From Prorocentrum cordatum (lineage: Eukaryota): DNA of 64,000 nucleotides. Of the stretch, positions 24,146 through 61,544 are shown piece after piece (positions within the stretch are counted from its first letter, which is position 1; each line of letters opens with the position of its first letter). The stretch lies in NCBI GenBank assembly GCA_963575745.1, contig CAUYUJ010000004.1:248001-312000 (forward strand), in the 5' to 3' direction. The translations under genes were made by a program, and so were the position numbers. Under the pieces are notes generated by a model, which saw nothing but the letters and a program-made list of their open reading frames with translations, made no database searches and had not been told where the DNA came from.

Positions 24146-24490
24146 AGTAAATAAGCTCGTCTCCGCCTCATAATAAATTAGGACATCACTTACTTTGCAT
24201 GCATCGCACTGTCCGCTGGAACTAACAGCTGCGTTCCGCAGCAGTATGATTGCTCGAACACGCCAACCTTGGTTTGCAGGAGAGAAAAGGAACGCGCCAG
24301 CCCTCGGCCGTCGTGGGTCGTCGGTCGTAGGCCAGCCGGCCTCCTCCCTTCACATTCCTGTGAGAGTAATCTTGTTTAGCGGATACTTGTCTTATCAATG
24401 TCTCATCCCGCCCCCTCTTTTTCCCTGAGCAGAGTGAACATGAGATCTTGATTCCTTTGTCATCTTACCCCGATTCTCAGAGGAAAGACT
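24146..24490 (+). repeat. 5' LTR (345 bp), AGT...ACT
   Basis: Aligns over its full length with 61201-61544; followed directly by a PBS-like sequence. Confidence 0.9.
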
Positions 24491-24510
24491 GGTTATCAGC
24501 CGAAGCGCGC
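24491..24510 (+). promoter_or_regulatory. Putative PBS GGTTATCAGCCGAAGCGCGC (complement of a tRNA anticodon arm)
   Basis: Abuts the LTR. The reverse complement GCGCGCTTCGGCTGATAACC resembles tRNA-Asn GCGCGTTCGGCTGTTAACC. Confidence 0.6.
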
Positions 24511-24599
24511 GACTCAATCGACGCGGGGTCGTCACATACAAAAAAAGAACTTTCAAATGTGCCCCGCGACTCAGTCGCTGCGGGAACGAGCTATGATAA

Positions 24600-27500
24600 G
24601 ACTGACATCGTGTCCAACAGCTCGAGAAGTGCCGATAAGCGCGTTGTACAACATGACGGACATGACACAAACAAGGACGGTCCAATTCAGGACCGAGTCC
24701 TTCCTTCATACATCGCCACTCGGGTAGTAAGGGGCAGAGGTACCGAAGGAGTAACAGAGATGTCGGTAGACGTCTCTCCCGCGGGAACTCGAATCGGTGA
24801 TCGCGAGCAAACCCCAGGCCCGTACGGGCGAGATGGCGTAACATCAAGACCTAGACGAAATGCGTTTTCGTCATGGAGTGCCAAATCGACGGAGTCAATC
24901 AGCTCAATTCCGAACACTCCACATGCTATTGCTACTGCCGCTGGTAAAGCCGGCCGGCCAGGGGAAGCCCAAGGGAACATGCATACGTACCCTAGTATCC
25001 CGACCGAGTGGGTGGGTACGAGTGCCAACGCCCCAATCCCAATAGCACTTAACGGACAATGCTGTCAGGACAGTGATGGCCCAATTGAAACAGATCATGA
25101 CATATATTATATGGAAGAAGATTTTGATAACATCAATAATGATATTTCCCTTAGCCGAGCATTGTCCGTGATGATGGACAAAAAGACATCCCTGCTCAAG
25201 ACGAAAGATGGTCTCCAGATGGATCCGATGAAGACACTAGTATCCTGACGCCTCAGGCGGACAGGGCGGAGGCCCAGACGAAGCATGAGAGGGGGTCCAC
25301 AGGGCGAACCCCTGCGCCTCACTTCAATAAACAACGGAATGAGGACTACGAGCTAAACGTCTCGCCACTGAAAGAAGGTTTCTCCCGTAATGCCGCCGCC
25401 TCAGGTGACTGGCAACCCTCGATTCCAGCTGTTGTTGAGGATGAAGAAATCGTCGGACAACCAGCTACGTATGCCCAGCTAATAACACAAGACGAGAAGG
25501 ATGAGGAGTTTTTAAATGCGCCTAAACCGCCAGGAAATACCTTCGTTTGCCCCAGATCAAATGCTTCAAGCAGGGGAAGACCCAAGATATCTAGATCAGG
25601 GGCGAGATCCACTTCAAAGAGCAACAGTGCCGTCTCCATGATGGAGGTTTGGTGGAACCCCAACCCTAACTGCGCGCCTCAGGCGCAGAGCAGATGCCCA
25701 GGAAAATGCAACAGGCCAGAAGGCGCATGTAGGAATCCAGTGTGCAAGAGTTGCTCGGACGTTTGCCATAAGTATAACATGCAGTGGCTGTGCGCAGAGC
25801 GTTACCCAATGGGCGAGCATAACTGCGCGTATCTCCCCATGCAATCTATTCAGGGCCAGGCCAGGCTGGCGGGGACTAACACTCAGAGAGAGTTGCTGAC
25901 CAATGAAGCGCAGCTGGCCGAAAGGGCCCGATTGGACAGAGAAGAATTAACTTAAACTGTGGTCGAAGCGAGAAAAACGTTCGAGGCTGAACGGATCGCC
26001 CTAGCCATGGCTGCTAGAGAGCGGGAACAGGCGCCGATAGAACATCTGCGTAATCAGACCGAGGCCGTTAAACGGCAAGTGGAGCTGGAAACCGAAAAGA
26101 AATACAAAGAATTATTGACTTCGGAGAGACAGGCCGTCGCGATAGCAAACAAGGAATCTGTCGACGCCAACGCGGTTGCCGCTGCTGTTGCGGCGGCCAG
26201 GATAGAAGGAGAACCAATCGCTACAGTCATGGCGGAACGAGAAAAACAGAGCTTACAAGAAGAGCTCAAAAACGCCAGGCTGGAAGCAGCTAACACCCAA
26301 GCCGTAGCTGCGAAGATAACCGACCAGAGCAATCTTTATCTGGAAGGACTCAAATCGCATGAAGAAGCTAGATCTTCCCTCCAGCGCATAAAAACGAGCA
26401 ATGCTAAGTGCCCGCCGGCTAAGCCGACTGGAACAAATGTACGCCAATCGTCGACGGCTCAGTCGTCCGGCATAGTGCCCGTTCCAACGCAATTTGATCA
26501 GACGACTCTGACAAATGCGGGGGCGTCGACCCTGCTGATGGGAGGTGTAAGACATCCTCCTCCCGAGGAGAGAGGACATGCACTTTCCGTGGGCCAATTC
26601 TGCGCAGTCGGCTTTCGTCTAAAGATGGACAAGTGCGTCGGATGTGGTAGGTCGGCACGTGAAGAACATATCGATGCAAGCACAAGAAGATGCTCCAGAT
26701 GCGACTTGTGGAAGAGTGAAAGATCAGCTGCCGACATGCAAGAAGAAGAGGCCATCTCGAACGCAGCTAATGCAGAGAAAGGAAAGATGAGGCTTAAGGC
26801 TATCATCGCCGACCCGACTCCATATACCGAGAATAAACGAGAAACCGGATTCACATCAAATTCATTTGGTTTTGCGTTGCTTTCGCAAGAAACTCCCGTG
26901 AGGCCGTTGTTGCGTCGGCACTTTACTGTTCCAGACCCTGCCCTAGGAGGTCCGGCGAAGCCGAGCACCGCCGAGAGTGGACTTCCTGTTGGGATCCAGC
27001 TAACTGGACCTAACGAAGGTAATACTCTCGCCAGTTGCCGCCCATCCTGTGGAGATGGTCATACGGGAATGACGGCGACTAAGTCGTCGGGCGAAGCAGG
27101 ACAGGGCGGAGAAGGAGACGACATGAGCGACGCTCCTAGCACTGAGATCGCATCTTCACATGAAGATGATCGTGGTAAATGACCACGTGGGTCGCCTCCG
27201 GGGGGGGTTCAGATCCCTCTGATGGTGGGTGGGCGCAGGGGGCCTCGGGGCCCCGGCGGACCGCGCGACTCGGTAGTAATTGACGAAAGCACGCCGTTGG
27301 ATCAATGGAGACAGGTTGGTAACAACCAGAAAATTGATTTGTTTGACATCCCTGATGTTACGAACATTCGCGAGTGGCAAATGCACGCAGCACGCGCAAT
27401 CGCTGGATCATCGCCCGAGAGCCAGGCTGCACAGCACTGGATTGCTGAGGCTATGGATCCAGCTGTGGAGGATGAGCAACTCAAAGATGCAGGGCGATTC

Positions 27501-60916: not shown

Positions 60917-61190
60917 GATCCGCCCGCGTGACTTAGTCGCGGCAGGCGCATGCATGGAAGTTCCCGTCCACGCGCGGCGCGCGTGTTGGACGGGCTAACA
61001 ACTCTACTGGTCGGCTAAGCTGGTCCAGCGGAGAGAACTTATTTTAACGATGTGGGAGTCGTCGGGCCTCTTCGGCCCTTAGCCCTCTGGCGGCCACCGT
61101 TGAGCGGTATTTTTTTTGTGCGGTTCGCTCCGGTGGTTGTAAATAATTAGGCCGGGGGTGCTGTGGCCGGATGGGCTCTACGAGGCCCGC

Positions 61191-61200
61191 CGCGGGGGGG
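61191..61200 (+). promoter_or_regulatory. Polypurine tract (GCGGGGGGG) before the 3' LTR
   Basis: G-run immediately 5' of the LTR start. Confidence 0.75.
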
Positions 61201-61544
61201 AGTAAATATGCTCCTCTCCGCTTCATAATAATGTATACATTATGACCCATCTTGCATGCTGCGCACTGTCTGACTCGAACTAATGCTGCATACTGCAGCT
61301 GTTTGTTTACTCAACAAGCTTTTGTTTGCTTGCAGGAAAGAAAAGGAGCGCGCCTGCCCTCGGCCGTCGCGTGTCGTTGGTCGTCGGCGGGCCGGCCTCC
61401 TCCCTTCACATTCCTGATGCAGTAAACTTGCTTACCGGATACTTGTCTTATCGATGTATCATCCCGCCCCGTCTCTCCCTGAGCAGAGTGGACATGAGAT
61501 CTTAATTCCTTTGGCATCTTACCCCGATTCTCAGAGGAAAGACT
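61201..61544 (+). repeat. 3' LTR (344 bp), AGT...ACT
   Basis: Homologous to 24146-24490; roughly 80% identical by eye. Confidence 0.9.

What the first reader, a model, noticed from the sequence alone, without database searches (positions are those of the whole stretch)
24146..61544. Giant (~23 kb) copia-type retrotransposon with an enzyme cargo: DNMT, SGNH hydrolase, ADP-ribosyltransferase and unknown domains after RNase H
Seen: LTR-PBS-gag-PR-INT-RT-RH, then ~11 kb more + strand coding sequence before PPT-LTR. Removing the duplicated segment and secondary insertions gives ~23 kb with LTRs of only 345 bp. Lesions mostly differ between copies A and B, suggesting an originally continuous polyprotein of roughly 7,000 aa (inference). 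Established: typical copia elements are far shorter, and dinoflagellate retroelements are known to carry C5 DNMTs. I am not aware of an LTR element combining DNMT, esterase and ART domains. Inference: a virus-like accessory module for modifying its own DNA, membranes or host defence factors.
Basis: partly seen in the sequence, partly recalled or inferred. Interest (0 to 1): 0.92.

Follow-up and report, generated by a model that had tools for sequence, protein, structure and literature searches.

The report
Giant copia-like retrotransposon with enzyme cargo
This stretch holds the decayed remains of two neighbouring copies of an unusually large (about 23-24 kb) copia-type jumping gene of a green-alga-like genome whose protein carries, behind the usual replication enzymes, a string of extra enzyme-like domains that standard databases do not recognise.

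Summary
Two 345-bp LTRs (24146-24491, 61201-61545) bound 37 kb of + strand coding sequence in copia order (PR, INT, RT, RNase H), followed by about 11.5 kb more coding sequence.

The cargo belongs to the element:
- Copies A and B differ under purifying selection in the cargo blocks as in RT (dN/dS 0.12-0.22).
- The whole tail is multi-copy in one sequencing run.
- Database fragments read through the window's private stop codons.
- 15 of 50 metagenome relatives keep RNase H next to the first cargo domain.

Domain calls:
- "DNMT": supported by fold only.
- "SGNH": moderately supported by fold and conserved S/G/N/DxxH blocks.
- "ART": a PARP-like H-Y-E block is a lead. A Tpt1-like motif is inconclusive here, but Pfam finds Tpt1 in 6 relatives.

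- The locus is two copies of different sublineages fused at 39959-39962, not one element with an internal duplication.
- Gag and pol are separated by a conserved TGA with a downstream hairpin, which suggests readthrough.
- The nearest named proteins are from Pyramimonas, not a dinoflagellate.

I found nothing in print describing a giant copia-type element with this cargo. It is a new variant of a known kind. This copy is dead.

The parts
24146..24491 (+). 5' LTR (of copy A)
   Evidence: 82.7% identical to 61201-61545. No target-site duplication with the other end.
24490..24501 (+). Primer-binding-site-like TGGTTATCAGCC at the LTR edge
   Evidence: Read. Its likeness to the tRNA-iMet primer site of copia elements is recalled, not tested. 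The window holds no tRNA gene.
24500..29838 (+). gag-like region of copy A. Three CCCH fingers at 29188-29250, 29458-29523 and 29755-29829. Tandem arrays inserted at 28016-28726.
   Evidence: Frames. Blocks N3 and ZnF are collinear with relative L001 at 30-31% identity. Fingers placed; arrays.
29839..29841 (+). gag/pol TGA (copy A); hairpin core at 29856-29872
   Evidence: TGA followed by C at the homologous place in A, B and L001. Hairpins of dG -21.9/-30.1/-29.0 kcal/mol, z -3.3/-4.8/-4.7. 14 pairs, 4 with changes on both sides, from 3 sequences only. It is the only in-frame stop shared by A and B.
29842..36197 (+). pol core of copy A: TM-like stretch at 29869, PR (DTG 30592), INT (31608-32054), RT (YVDD 34526), RNase H (35367-35783)
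   Evidence: Motifs. Collinear with L001 at 39-69% identity. dN/dS against copy B is 0.12-0.44. TM scan.
36637..37380 (+). Domain X, copy A: C5-methyltransferase-fold domain (EYCCG, PCTGGSPWQ, IEWP, HGCxxGL)
37809..39245 (+). Blocks Y1 and Y2, copy A: unknown, Y2 partly low-complexity
   Evidence: dN/dS 0.17 (Y1) and 0.32 (Y2) against copy B. No Pfam hit.
39436..39962 (+). SGNH-like block of copy A, cut off at the junction
   Evidence: Aligned with 52602-53278 of copy B, dN/dS 0.16.
39959..39962 (+). Junction of copy A (SGNH-like block) to copy B (end of gag), microhomology ACAA
39959..53278 (+). Copy B: end of gag, TGA at 40173-40175, PR-INT-RT, tandem-repeat insertion 45275-48301, RNase H, X (50008-50614), Y
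52602..53594 (+). SGNH/GDSL-like block (copy B, whole): SDST at 52770, NFND at 52986, D-x-x-H at 53352
53598..54350 (+). Block T2: small conserved part, then a low-complexity linker
   Evidence: Fragments bridge SGNH-T2-T3. The stop at 53595 is private to this copy.
54354..55303 (+). Block T3: PARP-like H-Y-E block (SHGTS 54810, GVY 54912, then frame 2: TAEIVF 55001); frameshift near 54918
   Evidence: Alignment A4; frame change; motif counts. Language-model lead: 15 of 30 hits are PF00644 clusters. Not folded.
55516..57558 (+). Pro-rich linker (T5, T6) and block T7, unknown
   Evidence: Frames. An extra base at 56236 relative to other copies.
57593..58253 (+). Block T8: Tpt1-like motif block (FHRACQGHS 57869, FHITD 57966); frameshift at 57965
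   Evidence: 14 homologues, 11 of them named Pyramimonas sp.. hhalign against a Tpt1 alignment gives only 18 columns, probability 7.9%. The block lies about 7.3 kb behind X, where 5 relatives carry a Pfam Tpt1 domain 4.7-6.2 kb behind X.
58257..60913 (+). Blocks T9 and T10: about 880 aa of unknown fold, including the longest open frame of the region (782 aa); one base missing at 60450
   Evidence: No hit in Pfam, PDB sequences or the Atlas.
61192..61200 (+). G-run (polypurine-tract-like) before the 3' LTR
61201..61545 (+). 3' LTR (of copy B)
   Evidence: The two last depth bins (60818-61700), which hold the LTR, are the highest behind the X domain.

Best explanation
The region is the wreck of two neighbouring copies, from different sublineages, of one family of very large Ty1/copia-like LTR retrotransposons, about 23-24 kb when whole. 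Copy A keeps its 5' LTR through the SGNH-like block. Copy B runs from the end of gag to its 3' LTR. A deletion or illegitimate recombination at the 4-nt microhomology at 39959-39962 joined them.

How a whole element most likely works:
- Shown by anatomy: an LTR-to-LTR transcript with a tRNA-type primer site.
- Inferred: a long Gag of about 1,500 aa with three CCCH fingers ends at a conserved UGA-C. A hairpin 6-9 nt downstream lets a fraction of ribosomes read through. The product is a Gag-Pol-cargo protein of about 7,400 aa.
- That protein holds a TM-like stretch, PR, INT, RT and RNase H. Then come a C5-methyltransferase-fold domain (X), an unknown block (Y) and an SGNH-like esterase. These are followed by a PARP-like block, a proline-rich linker, a Tpt1-like block and about 880 aa of unknown fold.
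- Inferred, about 35%: because the cargo is fused to Gag-Pol, it would be packed into the particle next to the element's RNA and cDNA. I think it most likely modifies the element's own nucleic acids, and so shields them from host sensing or silencing. The candidate reactions are methyl transfer by X and NAD-dependent end or 2'-phosphate chemistry by the Tpt1-like and PARP-like domains. The esterase would act on lipids or acetylated glycans, as proposed for retroelement GDSL esterases.

This particular locus is dead.
For: Element and order:
- LTRs; PR, INT, RT and RNase H motifs in copia order.
- Collinear with metagenome relative L001, from block N3 through ZnF, PR, INT, RT, RNase H and X, at 30-69% aa identity.
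- Relatives reach Pfam RVT_2: P0167 scores 33.2 bits against a cut-off of 31.6, and P0009 has it precomputed.

Cargo belongs to the element:
- A against B dN/dS is 0.15 for X, 0.17 for Y1 and 0.16 for the SGNH-like block. RT gives 0.12-0.13 and RNase H 0.13. Off-frame controls give 0.58-2.45.
- 7,409 contigs of run X1 lie on 48302-61700 at >=80% identity, 508 of them at >=99%. All 30 bins are covered.
- 135 database proteins match the SGNH-T2-T3 read-through. At the window's stop at 53595, 16 of 16 bridging fragments have a sense residue. At 54351, 7 of 8 do and one has a gap.
- All 15 contigs covering 53596 and all 15 covering 49129 differ from the window there.
- RNase H lies just upstream of X in 15 of 50 metagenome loci. 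X lies between INT and RT in 4.
- L001 and L005 carry open frames of 2,877+ and 3,009 aa.
- Pfam Tpt1 (PF01885) is above its cut-off in L005 (60.6 bits), L029 (33.4) and L010 (31.5). It is below the cut-off in L030, L035 and L045.

Two fused copies:
- dN between A and B is 0.06 in INT, but the LTRs differ by 17.3% (Jukes-Cantor distance about 0.20, worked out by hand).
- dS rises from 0.28 (INT) to 1.6 (SGNH-like block) along the unit.
- There is no target-site duplication, and the junction shows the microhomology ACAA.

Readthrough:
- TGA-C lies at the homologous place in A, B and L001, and it is the only in-frame stop that A and B share.
- Hairpins with z of -3.3 to -4.8 follow it.

Folds.
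Against: - No frame of the window hits Pfam, not even RVT_2 or rve.
- X has no sequence-level link to C5 methyltransferases. Its profile finds 0 PDB sequences at E<=10, and hhalign against E. coli Dcm gives probability 0.16%.
- The tail (SGNH-like block, T2-T10) has no detectable relative in any of the 50 metagenome loci, by tblastn at E<1e-5 or by hhalign against the L005 tail.
- Continuity from T3 to the 3' LTR is seen in this one copy only. The laid contigs are too short (at most about 400 bases) to bridge blocks.
- In L005 the tail is a separate frame after a 195-bp gap. A single fusion protein is therefore not shown.
- CpG observed/expected is 0.89-0.99 in the element and 0.87-1.14 in the flanks. 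There is no trace of CpG methylation decay.
- The readthrough signal rests on three sequences, two of them close.
Confidence: 0.68

Rival explanations
1. One reading: one single element insertion that carries an internal 10.3-kb tandem duplication. The duplication would have arisen at or after insertion, for instance by template switching during reverse transcription. The two LTRs would then be a true pair.
For: The duplicated units abut exactly, with 4 nt shared. No LTR remnant lies between them. The LTR identity (82.7%) is close to the nucleotide identity of A and B (84.5-73.2%).
Against: If the LTRs were identical at insertion, their distance of about 0.20 would be neutral decay. That decay would also have been added to A against B at every site. 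Yet dN between A and B is 0.06-0.11 from INT to RNase H, and dN/dS is 0.12-0.22. dS varies about five-fold along the unit. There is no target-site duplication.
Confidence: 0.1
2. The cargo is part of the element but is not one polyprotein. The tail behind X or Y would be one or more separate genes, like ORF3 or env of other LTR elements. They would be expressed from a spliced or subgenomic RNA and would not be packed with Pol.
For: In relative L005 the frame holding X stops, and a separate 3,009-aa frame starts 195 bp later. In the window the frame changes between Y2 and the SGNH-like block in both copies, by different amounts. Bdelloid LTR elements carry GDSL esterase as a separate ORF3 (PMC5408684, abstract).
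Against: Residues upstream of the first Met of the SGNH-like block are conserved in 8-13 fragments. From the SGNH-like block to T4 the frames are the same, apart from private stops. L001's frame runs on for 1.3 kb behind X without a stop.
Confidence: 0.17
3. The 'cargo' is passenger DNA. It would be host gene fragments or other nested mobile elements trapped between LTRs, with no role for the element.
For: The tail has no Pfam hit and no relative in the 50 metagenome loci. Two tandem-repeat blocks are certainly secondary insertions.
Against: Purifying selection acts on X, Y1 and the SGNH-like block between two sublineages. All blocks lie on one strand in near-continuous frames. No internal repeats or ends bound the blocks. 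All tail bins are multi-copy. X and Tpt1 recur in distant relatives at similar distances.
Confidence: 0.05

Closest known systems
Ty1/copia (Pseudoviridae) LTR retrotransposons, Pfam RVT_2 reverse transcriptase
   Same: It has LTRs, a tRNA-type primer-site-like sequence and the order PR-INT-RT-RNase H. It also shows the copia-type RNase H signature (DADxAxD...STS) and the INT signature (HHCC; QN.VAER). Relatives reach RVT_2.
   Different: It is roughly three to five times the usual length (my recollection of 5-9 kb for copia). Gag has CCCH fingers instead of CCHC knuckles. Gag and pol are separated by an in-frame TGA. About 11.5 kb of extra coding sequence lies behind RNase H. The sequences are so diverged that the window's own RT and INT miss Pfam.
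Giant Ty3/gypsy elements Burro (planarian, internal region up to 25 kb) and Ogre (plants), as reviewed in PMC6431247 (passages read)
   Same: They are LTR retrotransposons with internal regions above 20 kb that carry many extra motifs in frame.
   Different: Those are gypsy-type (RT before INT), with different cargo (BIR, BCL2-like, MATH, env-like). The word 'copia' does not occur in that review.
Retrotransposon-borne cytosine methyltransferases: SymbioLINE-Dnmt, SymbioDIRS-Dnmt3, KnitGypsy-Dnmt3 (PMC5890265, passages read)
   Same: A methyltransferase-fold domain sits inside a retrotransposon coding region, under purifying selection.
   Different: Those DNMTs are recognisable by Pfam and belong to Dnmt3 or an orphan clade, in LINE, DIRS and gypsy elements. 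That paper states that Symbiodinium Copia elements lack any DNMT domain. Domain X matches no DNMT profile, has no long target-recognition domain, and sits in copia-like pol, either behind RNase H or between INT and RT.
GDSL/SGNH esterases of retroelements: ORF3 of bdelloid LTR elements, Terminons, ORF1 of some non-LTR elements (PMC5408684 abstract; PMC6431247 passages; PMC3905857 seen in a search listing only)
   Same: An SGNH-type esterase is carried by a reverse-transcribing element.
   Different: Here it lies inside a long frame downstream of pol in a copia-like element of an alga. It is not recognisable by Pfam.
Tpt1/KptA RNA 2'-phosphotransferase (PF01885), an NAD-dependent ADP-ribosyltransferase-fold enzyme
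   Same: Relatives of the element carry domains above the Pfam cut-off (L005, L029, L010). R21, H22 and R80 (E. coli KptA numbering) are invariant in the 4-row alignment. The window's T8 keeps an RAxQGHS-like motif at a comparable distance behind X.
   Different: T8 itself fails Pfam, and hhalign aligns only 18 columns. I found no paper that joins the words retrotransposon, KptA and copia.
Stop-codon readthrough at gag-pol as in gammaretroviruses (recalled, not looked up)
   Same: An in-frame stop lies between gag and pol, with a stable structure a few bases downstream.
   Different: Here the signal is UGA-C plus a simple hairpin in a copia-like element. Readthrough is inferred from three sequences, not measured.

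Membership tests
Ty1/copia LTR retrotransposon | Direct long terminal repeats bounding the element | tested here: met
   24146-24491 against 61201-61545, 82.7% identity. They probably stem from two copies.
Ty1/copia LTR retrotransposon | Target-site duplication flanking the LTR pair | tested here: not met
   The flanks read ACCCA and TAGGG. This is expected if the ends belong to two insertions.
Ty1/copia LTR retrotransposon | Domain order PR-INT-RT-RNase H | tested here: met
   Motifs at 30592, 31608-32054, 34526 and 35367-35783. Collinear with L001.
Ty1/copia LTR retrotransposon | Reverse transcriptase of Pfam family RVT_2 (PF07727) | tested here: inconclusive
   Window frames give no hit at E<=10. 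Among relatives, P0167 scores 33.2 bits (cut-off 31.6). P0168 scores 30.6, L010 30.4 and L005 26.4. P0009 has the family precomputed.
Ty1/copia LTR retrotransposon | Integrase core of Pfam family rve | tested here: not met
   No rve hit in the window, nor in the L001, L005 and L010 frames at E<=0.01. The HHCC finger and D, D, E with QNAVAER are seen by eye only.
Ty1/copia LTR retrotransposon | Primer-binding site complementary to a tRNA 3' end | tested here: inconclusive
   TGGTTATCAGCC sits at the LTR edge. The match to tRNA-iMet is recalled. The window holds no tRNA gene.
Cytosine-C5 methyltransferase (PF00145) | Sequence match to the family profile | tested here: not met
   No Pfam hit. Homologues P0003-P0008 have none precomputed. 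The profile finds 0 PDB sequences. hhalign against Dcm gives probability 0.16%.
Cytosine-C5 methyltransferase (PF00145) | Class I methyltransferase fold closest to C5 methyltransferases | tested here: met
Cytosine-C5 methyltransferase (PF00145) | Catalytic Pro-Cys after strand 4 and Glu (ENV) after strand 5 | tested here: inconclusive
   P74-C75 is invariant in 10 of 10 sequences and directly follows a strand. 'IEWP' ends the next core strand. The superposition on the catalytic residues was not inspected.
Cytosine-C5 methyltransferase (PF00145) | Target-recognition domain and motifs IX-X | tested here: inconclusive
   Only about 60 residues with a C..H.H pattern and one helix follow the core. 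No motif was recognised.
Cytosine-C5 methyltransferase (PF00145) | Methyl transfer to cytosine | not testable with these tools
   CpG observed/expected of 0.89-0.99 gives no hint either way.
SGNH/GDSL hydrolase | Sequence match to a family profile | tested here: not met
   No Pfam hit for the window block or for the 44 homologous fragments tested.
SGNH/GDSL hydrolase | SGNH fold | tested here: inconclusive
SGNH/GDSL hydrolase | Blocks I, II, III and V in order (Ser, Gly, Asn, Asp-x-x-His) | tested here: met
   S60 in 23 of 25 rows (D59 19/25, T61 25/25); G87 17/18; N132 16/18; D252 25/27; H255 19/25. The Ser block lies in a low-confidence part of the model.
PARP-like ADP-ribosyltransferase (PF00644) | Sequence match to the family profile | tested here: not met
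   No Pfam hit for T3 or for its homologues. The profile finds 0 PDB sequences.
PARP-like ADP-ribosyltransferase (PF00644) | H-Y-E triad in order | tested here: inconclusive
   32 fragments were examined. His is kept in 8 of the 11 that cover it, Tyr in 4 of 5 and Glu in 3 of 3. The window has all three, across a frameshift. The equivalence to the PARP triad rests on my reading of the motif.
PARP-like ADP-ribosyltransferase (PF00644) | ART fold | not tested
The only lead is from language-model features: 15 of 30 hits are PARP clusters, scores 0.92 and 0.89.
Tpt1/KptA (PF01885) | Sequence match to the family profile, window block T8 | tested here: not met
   No hit at E<=10. hhalign of the T8 alignment against a Tpt1 alignment gives 18 columns, probability 7.9%.
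Tpt1/KptA (PF01885) | Sequence match to the family profile, relatives of the element | tested here: met
   L005 60.6 bits, L029 33.4 and L010 31.5 (cut-off 26). L035 24.4, L045 21.7 and L030 20.8 fall below it.

The most novel reading that the evidence does not exclude
Domain X and Tpt1 would mark a widespread, so far undescribed clade of copia-like retroelements of marine algae and protists. These elements would carry their own nucleic-acid-modification kit: a new, Pfam-invisible branch of C5-methyltransferase-fold enzymes plus NAD-dependent ADP-ribosyltransferase-fold enzymes. In the Pyramimonas-like lineage the kit would have grown into a Gag-Pol-cargo readthrough protein of about 7,400 aa, rivalling the largest known LTR elements. 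The enzymes would travel inside the particle and chemically mark or cap the element's RNA or cDNA. If so, the retroelement writes epigenetic or end modifications on itself, and part of algal DNA or RNA modification would be of retroelement origin.
Probability: 0.3. Interest if true: 0.85.

Novelty: new variant of a known kind. Interest (0 to 1): 0.72.

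Why it matters
LTR retrotransposons are thought to be limited to about 10 kb, and few break that limit. The known giants are gypsy-type.

A copia-type family with about 22 kb of coding sequence shows that the size limit can be broken in the other great LTR superfamily as well. Four or more enzyme-like accessory domains under purifying selection show that such elements can build up a virus-like toolkit.

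Domain X is shared by 50 metagenome loci, in two positions within pol. It escapes every profile search. Surveys that report copia elements 'without DNMT' may therefore have missed it.

The recurrent pairing of X with Tpt1 gives a concrete, testable lead on nucleic-acid modification by retroelements. The TGA-hairpin cassette is a compact candidate readthrough signal that can be tested directly.

Tried and rejected
- The repeat finder on the whole window returned only tandem arrays. I replaced it with a self-blastn.
- No whole genome is held for this window.
- Earlier findings of the scan: nothing by place, sequence or words.
- Sequence searches against PDB chains found nothing for the INT frame, the X profile, the T3 profile or T9.
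- The Atlas gave no usable hit for T9.
- Sequencing runs: no RNA holder is listed. One DNA run holds 27% of the sampled words, and runs X2 and X3 hold next to nothing. Expression therefore stays open.
- The tail has no relative in the 50 loci (tblastn), and L005's 3,009-aa frame has no BLAST relative among the loci or in the window. hhalign of the SGNH-like and T3 profiles against that frame found nothing.
- One alignment of all 139 fragments misplaced the T2 and T3 fragments. I tried MAFFT settings offline and then aligned each block separately.
- The viral-contig scan with X gave 0 loci. The scans with the SGNH-like and T8 alignments were not run, because no stretch was conserved enough.
- Rfam found no family in 24000-61700, and the window has no tRNA gene.
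- hhalign of X against E. coli Dcm found nothing.
- There is no CpG depletion.
- A hydrophobicity scan found no env-like transmembrane segment in the tail.
- Literature searches that returned nothing relevant: retrotransposon + KptA + copia gave 0 papers. Copia + giant + PARP + retrotransposon + polyprotein gave 1 unrelated paper. Pyramimonas + retrotransposon + genome assembly gave 6 papers. In the one I searched (PMC10675990, passages) the word 'copia' does not occur; the other five were seen as listings only.
- Supplements of the papers were not opened.

Full report
**What is in the sequence**

A self-comparison of the window finds a direct repeat at 24146-24491 and 61201-61545, 82.7% identical over 352 columns. 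It also finds a 10.3-kb unit present twice in tandem. Copy A is 29619-39962 and copy B is 39959-53278, in pieces of 84.5, 81.2 and 73.2% identity. Copy B is interrupted at 45275-48301.

The LTR alignment shows sharp edges (AGT...ACTG). TGGTTATCAGCC lies at the inner edge of the 5' LTR, and a G-run lies before the 3' LTR.

The interruption in B consists of tandem arrays: (CCGGTG)n on both sides, 77-bp repeats and (GAT)190. A second array block sits at 28016-28726 in gag.

Open frames of the + strand tile the region from about 24.4 to 60.9 kb. Motifs in the translations come in copia order:
- PR: IIDTGCG
- INT: an HHCC finger with D, D, E and QNAVAER
- RT: YVDD
- RNase H: YSDADLASD...STS, STLEAE, AADIGTQ

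Behind RNase H there are another 3.9 kb in A and, after the end of the repeated unit, 7.6 kb up to 60913.

**Nothing matches a known family by sequence**

None of 60 frames hits Pfam at E<=0.01, apart from one chance match inside a tandem array. 24 frames re-run at E<=10 give only chance-level rows. All names therefore had to be earned otherwise.

**The first cargo domain (X, 36637-37380 in A, 50008-50614 in B)**

A word-indexed protein search found 9 relatives at 38-76% identity. P0003, P0006 and P0010 run from the end of RNase H into X. P0009 runs from X into a copia-type RT (PF07727 precomputed). PCTGGSPWQ is invariant in 10 of 10 sequences.

An AlphaFold model from this alignment has pLDDT 81.2 and pTM 0.79.

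Foldseek against the PDB gives no match at E<=0.001. Its best rows (from E 1.1e-3) are DNMT3A/3B, DNMT1, M.HhaI and Dnmt2, mixed with RlmJ and ZCCHC4.

VIA-align against 48,161 representative chains puts cytosine-C5 or DNA-modification methyltransferases in all of the first 14 rows:

|---|---|---|---|
| 3g7u | 11.4 | 3.4 | 172 |
| DNMT3A | 10.8 | 4.6 | 188 |
| DNMT3B | 10.6 | not noted | not noted |
| DNMT5 | 10.5 | not noted | not noted |
| M.HhaI | 10.2 | 4.0 | 190 |

In the model, EYCCG follows strand 1, an acidic residue ends strand 2, Pro-Cys follows the next core strand and IEWP ends the one after. These are the places of motifs I, II, IV and VI of C5 methyltransferases. The motif names are recalled, and the superposition was not inspected.

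Against the call, the X profile finds nothing among PDB sequences. hhalign against E. coli Dcm gives probability 0.16%.

I conclude that X has a C5-methyltransferase-like fold with a conserved Pro-Cys. Membership of the DNMT family and its activity are not shown.

**X defines a wide clade**

Scanning metagenome contigs for PCTGGSPW gave 50 loci with X at 23-58% identity. tblastn with the window's blocks shows two architectures:
- RNase H directly upstream of X in 15 loci (L001, 4, 5, 7, 9, 12, 17, 18, 23, 26, 31, 35, 42, 45, 49).
- X between INT and RT in 4 loci (L003, 6, 10, 16).
- The other 31 loci show X alone.

L001 is collinear with the window from gag block N3 through ZnF, PR, INT, RT, RNase H and X, at 30-69% identity. 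It groups with the window in an RT plus RNase H tree of 12 rows, with support 100/100. In that tree the X-before-RT form (L010, L006) is nested among RNase H-X forms.

L001 holds open frames of 1,178 and 2,877 aa that run off the contig. L005 holds a 3,009-aa frame behind X.

Pfam on 15 and then 67 frames of these loci finds Tpt1/KptA (PF01885) in six loci:
- L005: E 2.7e-16, 60.6 bits
- L029: 33.4 bits
- L010: 31.5 bits, in a frame upstream of gag
- L035, L045 and L030: weaker, below the cut-off of 26 bits

In five of the six loci the Tpt1 domain lies 4.7-6.2 kb behind X. RVT_2 reaches its cut-off in P0167 (33.2 bits).

**The tail of the window**

The block at 52602-53594 found three relatives, all named Pyramimonas sp. 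in EukProt, at 81, 67 and 50% identity. The accession of the best one is EP00959, Pyramimonas sp. CCMP1952.

I read 52602-54998 through its two stops with X and scored it against 1.84 billion representatives. That gave 135 proteins at E<=0.001, 86 of them at E<=1e-10. Nearly all are fragments of 60-500 aa, and together they cover the whole query.

Many fragments bridge the blocks and the window's stops:
- At the stop at 53595, 16 of 16 bridging fragments have a sense residue (15 Trp, 1 Arg).
- At the stop at 54351, 7 of 8 do, and one has a gap.

44 of these fragments have no Pfam hit.

*SGNH-like block.* Block residues are kept in order:
- S60 in 23 of 25 rows, within S-D-S-T
- G87 in 17 of 18
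- N132 in 16 of 18
- D252 in 25 of 27
- H255 in 19 of 25

*Block T3 (54354-55303).* Intact fragments share SHGT..LHAILEG..LLPSD..YGG...GVYS...HTKY..EETF..W.AEIIF. The window has the same across a frameshift near 54918. Of 32 fragments examined, His is kept in 8 of the 11 that cover it, Tyr in 4 of 5 and Glu in 3 of 3. This reads like the H-Y-E of PARP-type transferases, which is my reading of the motif. A language-model look-up of P0021 residues 215-440 returned PARP catalytic clusters in 15 of 30 hits, with scores 0.92 and 0.89. That is a lead only.

*Block T8 (57593-58253).* It has 14 relatives, 11 of them named Pyramimonas sp. They share PIPVFYRACQGHS...LLHITD. hhalign against a Tpt1 alignment aligns only the 18 columns around RAxQGHS, with probability 7.9%. 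That alignment was built from E. coli KptA and the L005, L030 and L010 segments. T8 lies about 7.3 kb behind X, much as Tpt1 does in the relatives. The call is suggestive, not shown.

*Blocks T7, T9 and T10.* These have no match anywhere.

**Is the cargo part of the element?**

Three independent lines say yes.

1. Copies A and B differ mostly at synonymous sites. Off-frame controls give 0.58-2.45.

| block | dN/dS | codons |
|---|---|---|
| INT | 0.22 | 581 |
| RT | 0.13 and 0.12 | 225 and 189 |
| RNase H | 0.13 | 399 |
| X | 0.15 | 227 |
| Y1 | 0.17 | 295 |
| SGNH-like block | 0.16 | 175 |

2. Contigs of one DNA run lie on every one of 30 bins of 48302-61700. There are 7,409 contigs at >=80% identity, 508 of them at >=99%. 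At the window's stops at 49129 and 53596 all covering contigs differ from the window (15 each). Other copies also lack the extra bases at 56236 and 57965 and have a base more at 60450.

3. The bridging fragments and the relatives described above.

Limits remain. The contigs are too short to bridge blocks. The order T3 to T10 is seen only in this copy. No locus outside the Pyramimonas-like set shares the tail.

**One element or two?**

If A and B had been identical when the locus formed, they would have decayed neutrally. They did not (dN/dS 0.12-0.22).

If the two LTRs had been identical at insertion, their distance would be neutral decay added to A against B at every site. That distance is 17.3% differences, about 0.20 after Jukes-Cantor correction worked out by hand. 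Yet dN is 0.06 in INT and 0.09-0.11 in RT and RNase H.

dS also climbs from 0.28 (INT) to 1.6 (SGNH-like block). There is no target-site duplication, and the junction shares ACAA with both parental sequences.

The simplest reading is two neighbouring copies of different sublineages joined by a deletion. The size of a whole element then follows from overlaying A (5' LTR to the SGNH-like block) and B (end of gag to 3' LTR). It is about 23-24 kb.

Lesions differ between A and B. They are separated by 18 indels that are not multiples of three. A has 3 private in-frame stops, and B has up to 13 by the pairing in A's frame, some of which may lie off-frame behind B's own frameshifts.

**A conserved stop between gag and pol**

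The only in-frame stop shared by A and B is a TGA, at 29839 in A and 40173 in B. It lies just behind a third CCCH finger. L001 has a TGA at the homologous place, and in all three the next base is C.

A hairpin starts 6-9 nt downstream in all three. The free energies are -21.9, -30.1 and -29.0 kcal/mol, with z of -3.3, -4.8 and -4.7. One of 200 shuffles folds as well.

RNAalifold finds 14 pairs, 4 of them with changes on both sides, though from three sequences only.

The only TM-like stretch of the whole protein follows directly.

I infer programmed UGA readthrough. So there is not one ORF but a Gag of about 1,500 aa and a readthrough product of about 7,400 aa.

**Comparison with what is known**

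- Retrotransposon DNMTs are known in LINE, DIRS and gypsy elements. The same paper states that Symbiodinium Copia elements lack a DNMT domain (PMC5890265, passages).
- GDSL esterases are known as ORF3 of bdelloid LTR elements and in Terminons (PMC5408684, abstract; PMC6431247, passages).
- The giants reviewed there are gypsy-type (Burro, Ogre) or Penelope-like. 'Copia' does not occur in that review.
- Searches joining copia, giant, PARP or KptA, or Pyramimonas and retrotransposon, found no description of such an element.
- The library lacks most subscription journals and Repbase reports, so 'not in print' holds only for these searches.

**Verdict**

The finding is real and more than ordinary. 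It is a dead, fused pair of copies of a giant copia-like family with an integral, selected, mostly unrecognisable enzyme cargo. The family belongs to a wider clade marked by a methyltransferase-fold domain and Tpt1. It is a new variant of a known kind. What the cargo does remains inference.

Noticed in passing
window 29839-29876, 40173-40210; L001 3536-3585: A conserved in-frame TGA followed by C lies at the gag/pol boundary, with a stable hairpin starting 6-9 nt downstream. It looks like a stop-codon readthrough signal in a copia-like element.
   Followed up: partly
window 29869-29925, 40200-40256: The only TM-like hydrophobic stretch of the whole coding region lies right after the gag/pol TGA. 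The matching place in L001 is also hydrophobic and is followed by basic residues.
   Followed up: no
window 29188-29829: Gag ends in three CCCH-type fingers instead of the usual CCHC knuckles. Relative L010 gives strong Pfam zf-CCCH hits at the same place.
   Followed up: partly
window 8935-13221, minus strand: An intact 1,428-aa open frame upstream of the element gives a weak thymidylate-synthase-like Pfam match (E 1.6e-4, 21.4 bits, below the cut-off of 24.3). A frame at 7374-8360 (+) holds a CCHC knuckle. This may be another mobile element.
   Followed up: no
window 45275-48301 and 28016-28726: Blocks of tandem repeats are inserted in coding sequence. The larger one is bounded on both sides by (CCGGTG)n arrays and holds 77-bp repeats and (GAT)190.
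   Followed up: partly
window 17000-22000: Long 9-12-bp tandem arrays lie at 17-19 kb. A G-rich stretch at 20-22 kb has GC skew 0.65 and GC content 0.39.
   Followed up: no
window 61546-61700: The DNA just outside the 3' LTR is itself covered by many contigs of run X1, with variable A/GA insertions at 61636. The element therefore sits in another repeat.
   Followed up: no
L005 4470-13496: A 3,009-aa open frame lies behind X in a distant relative. Apart from a clear Tpt1 domain at residues 1994-2202, it has no detectable similarity to anything else fetched here.
   Followed up: partly
L010 723-2909 and 3244-10665: This relative has LTR-like repeats at 755-893 and 11075-11213. Tpt1 lies in a frame upstream of gag, and X lies between INT and RT. 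It carries the same two accessory domains in other positions.
   Followed up: partly
L026 17844-18755: A frame about 7 kb behind X in a 19.7-kb contig matches Pfam DUF7869 (E 1.2e-20). It may belong to a neighbouring element.
   Followed up: no
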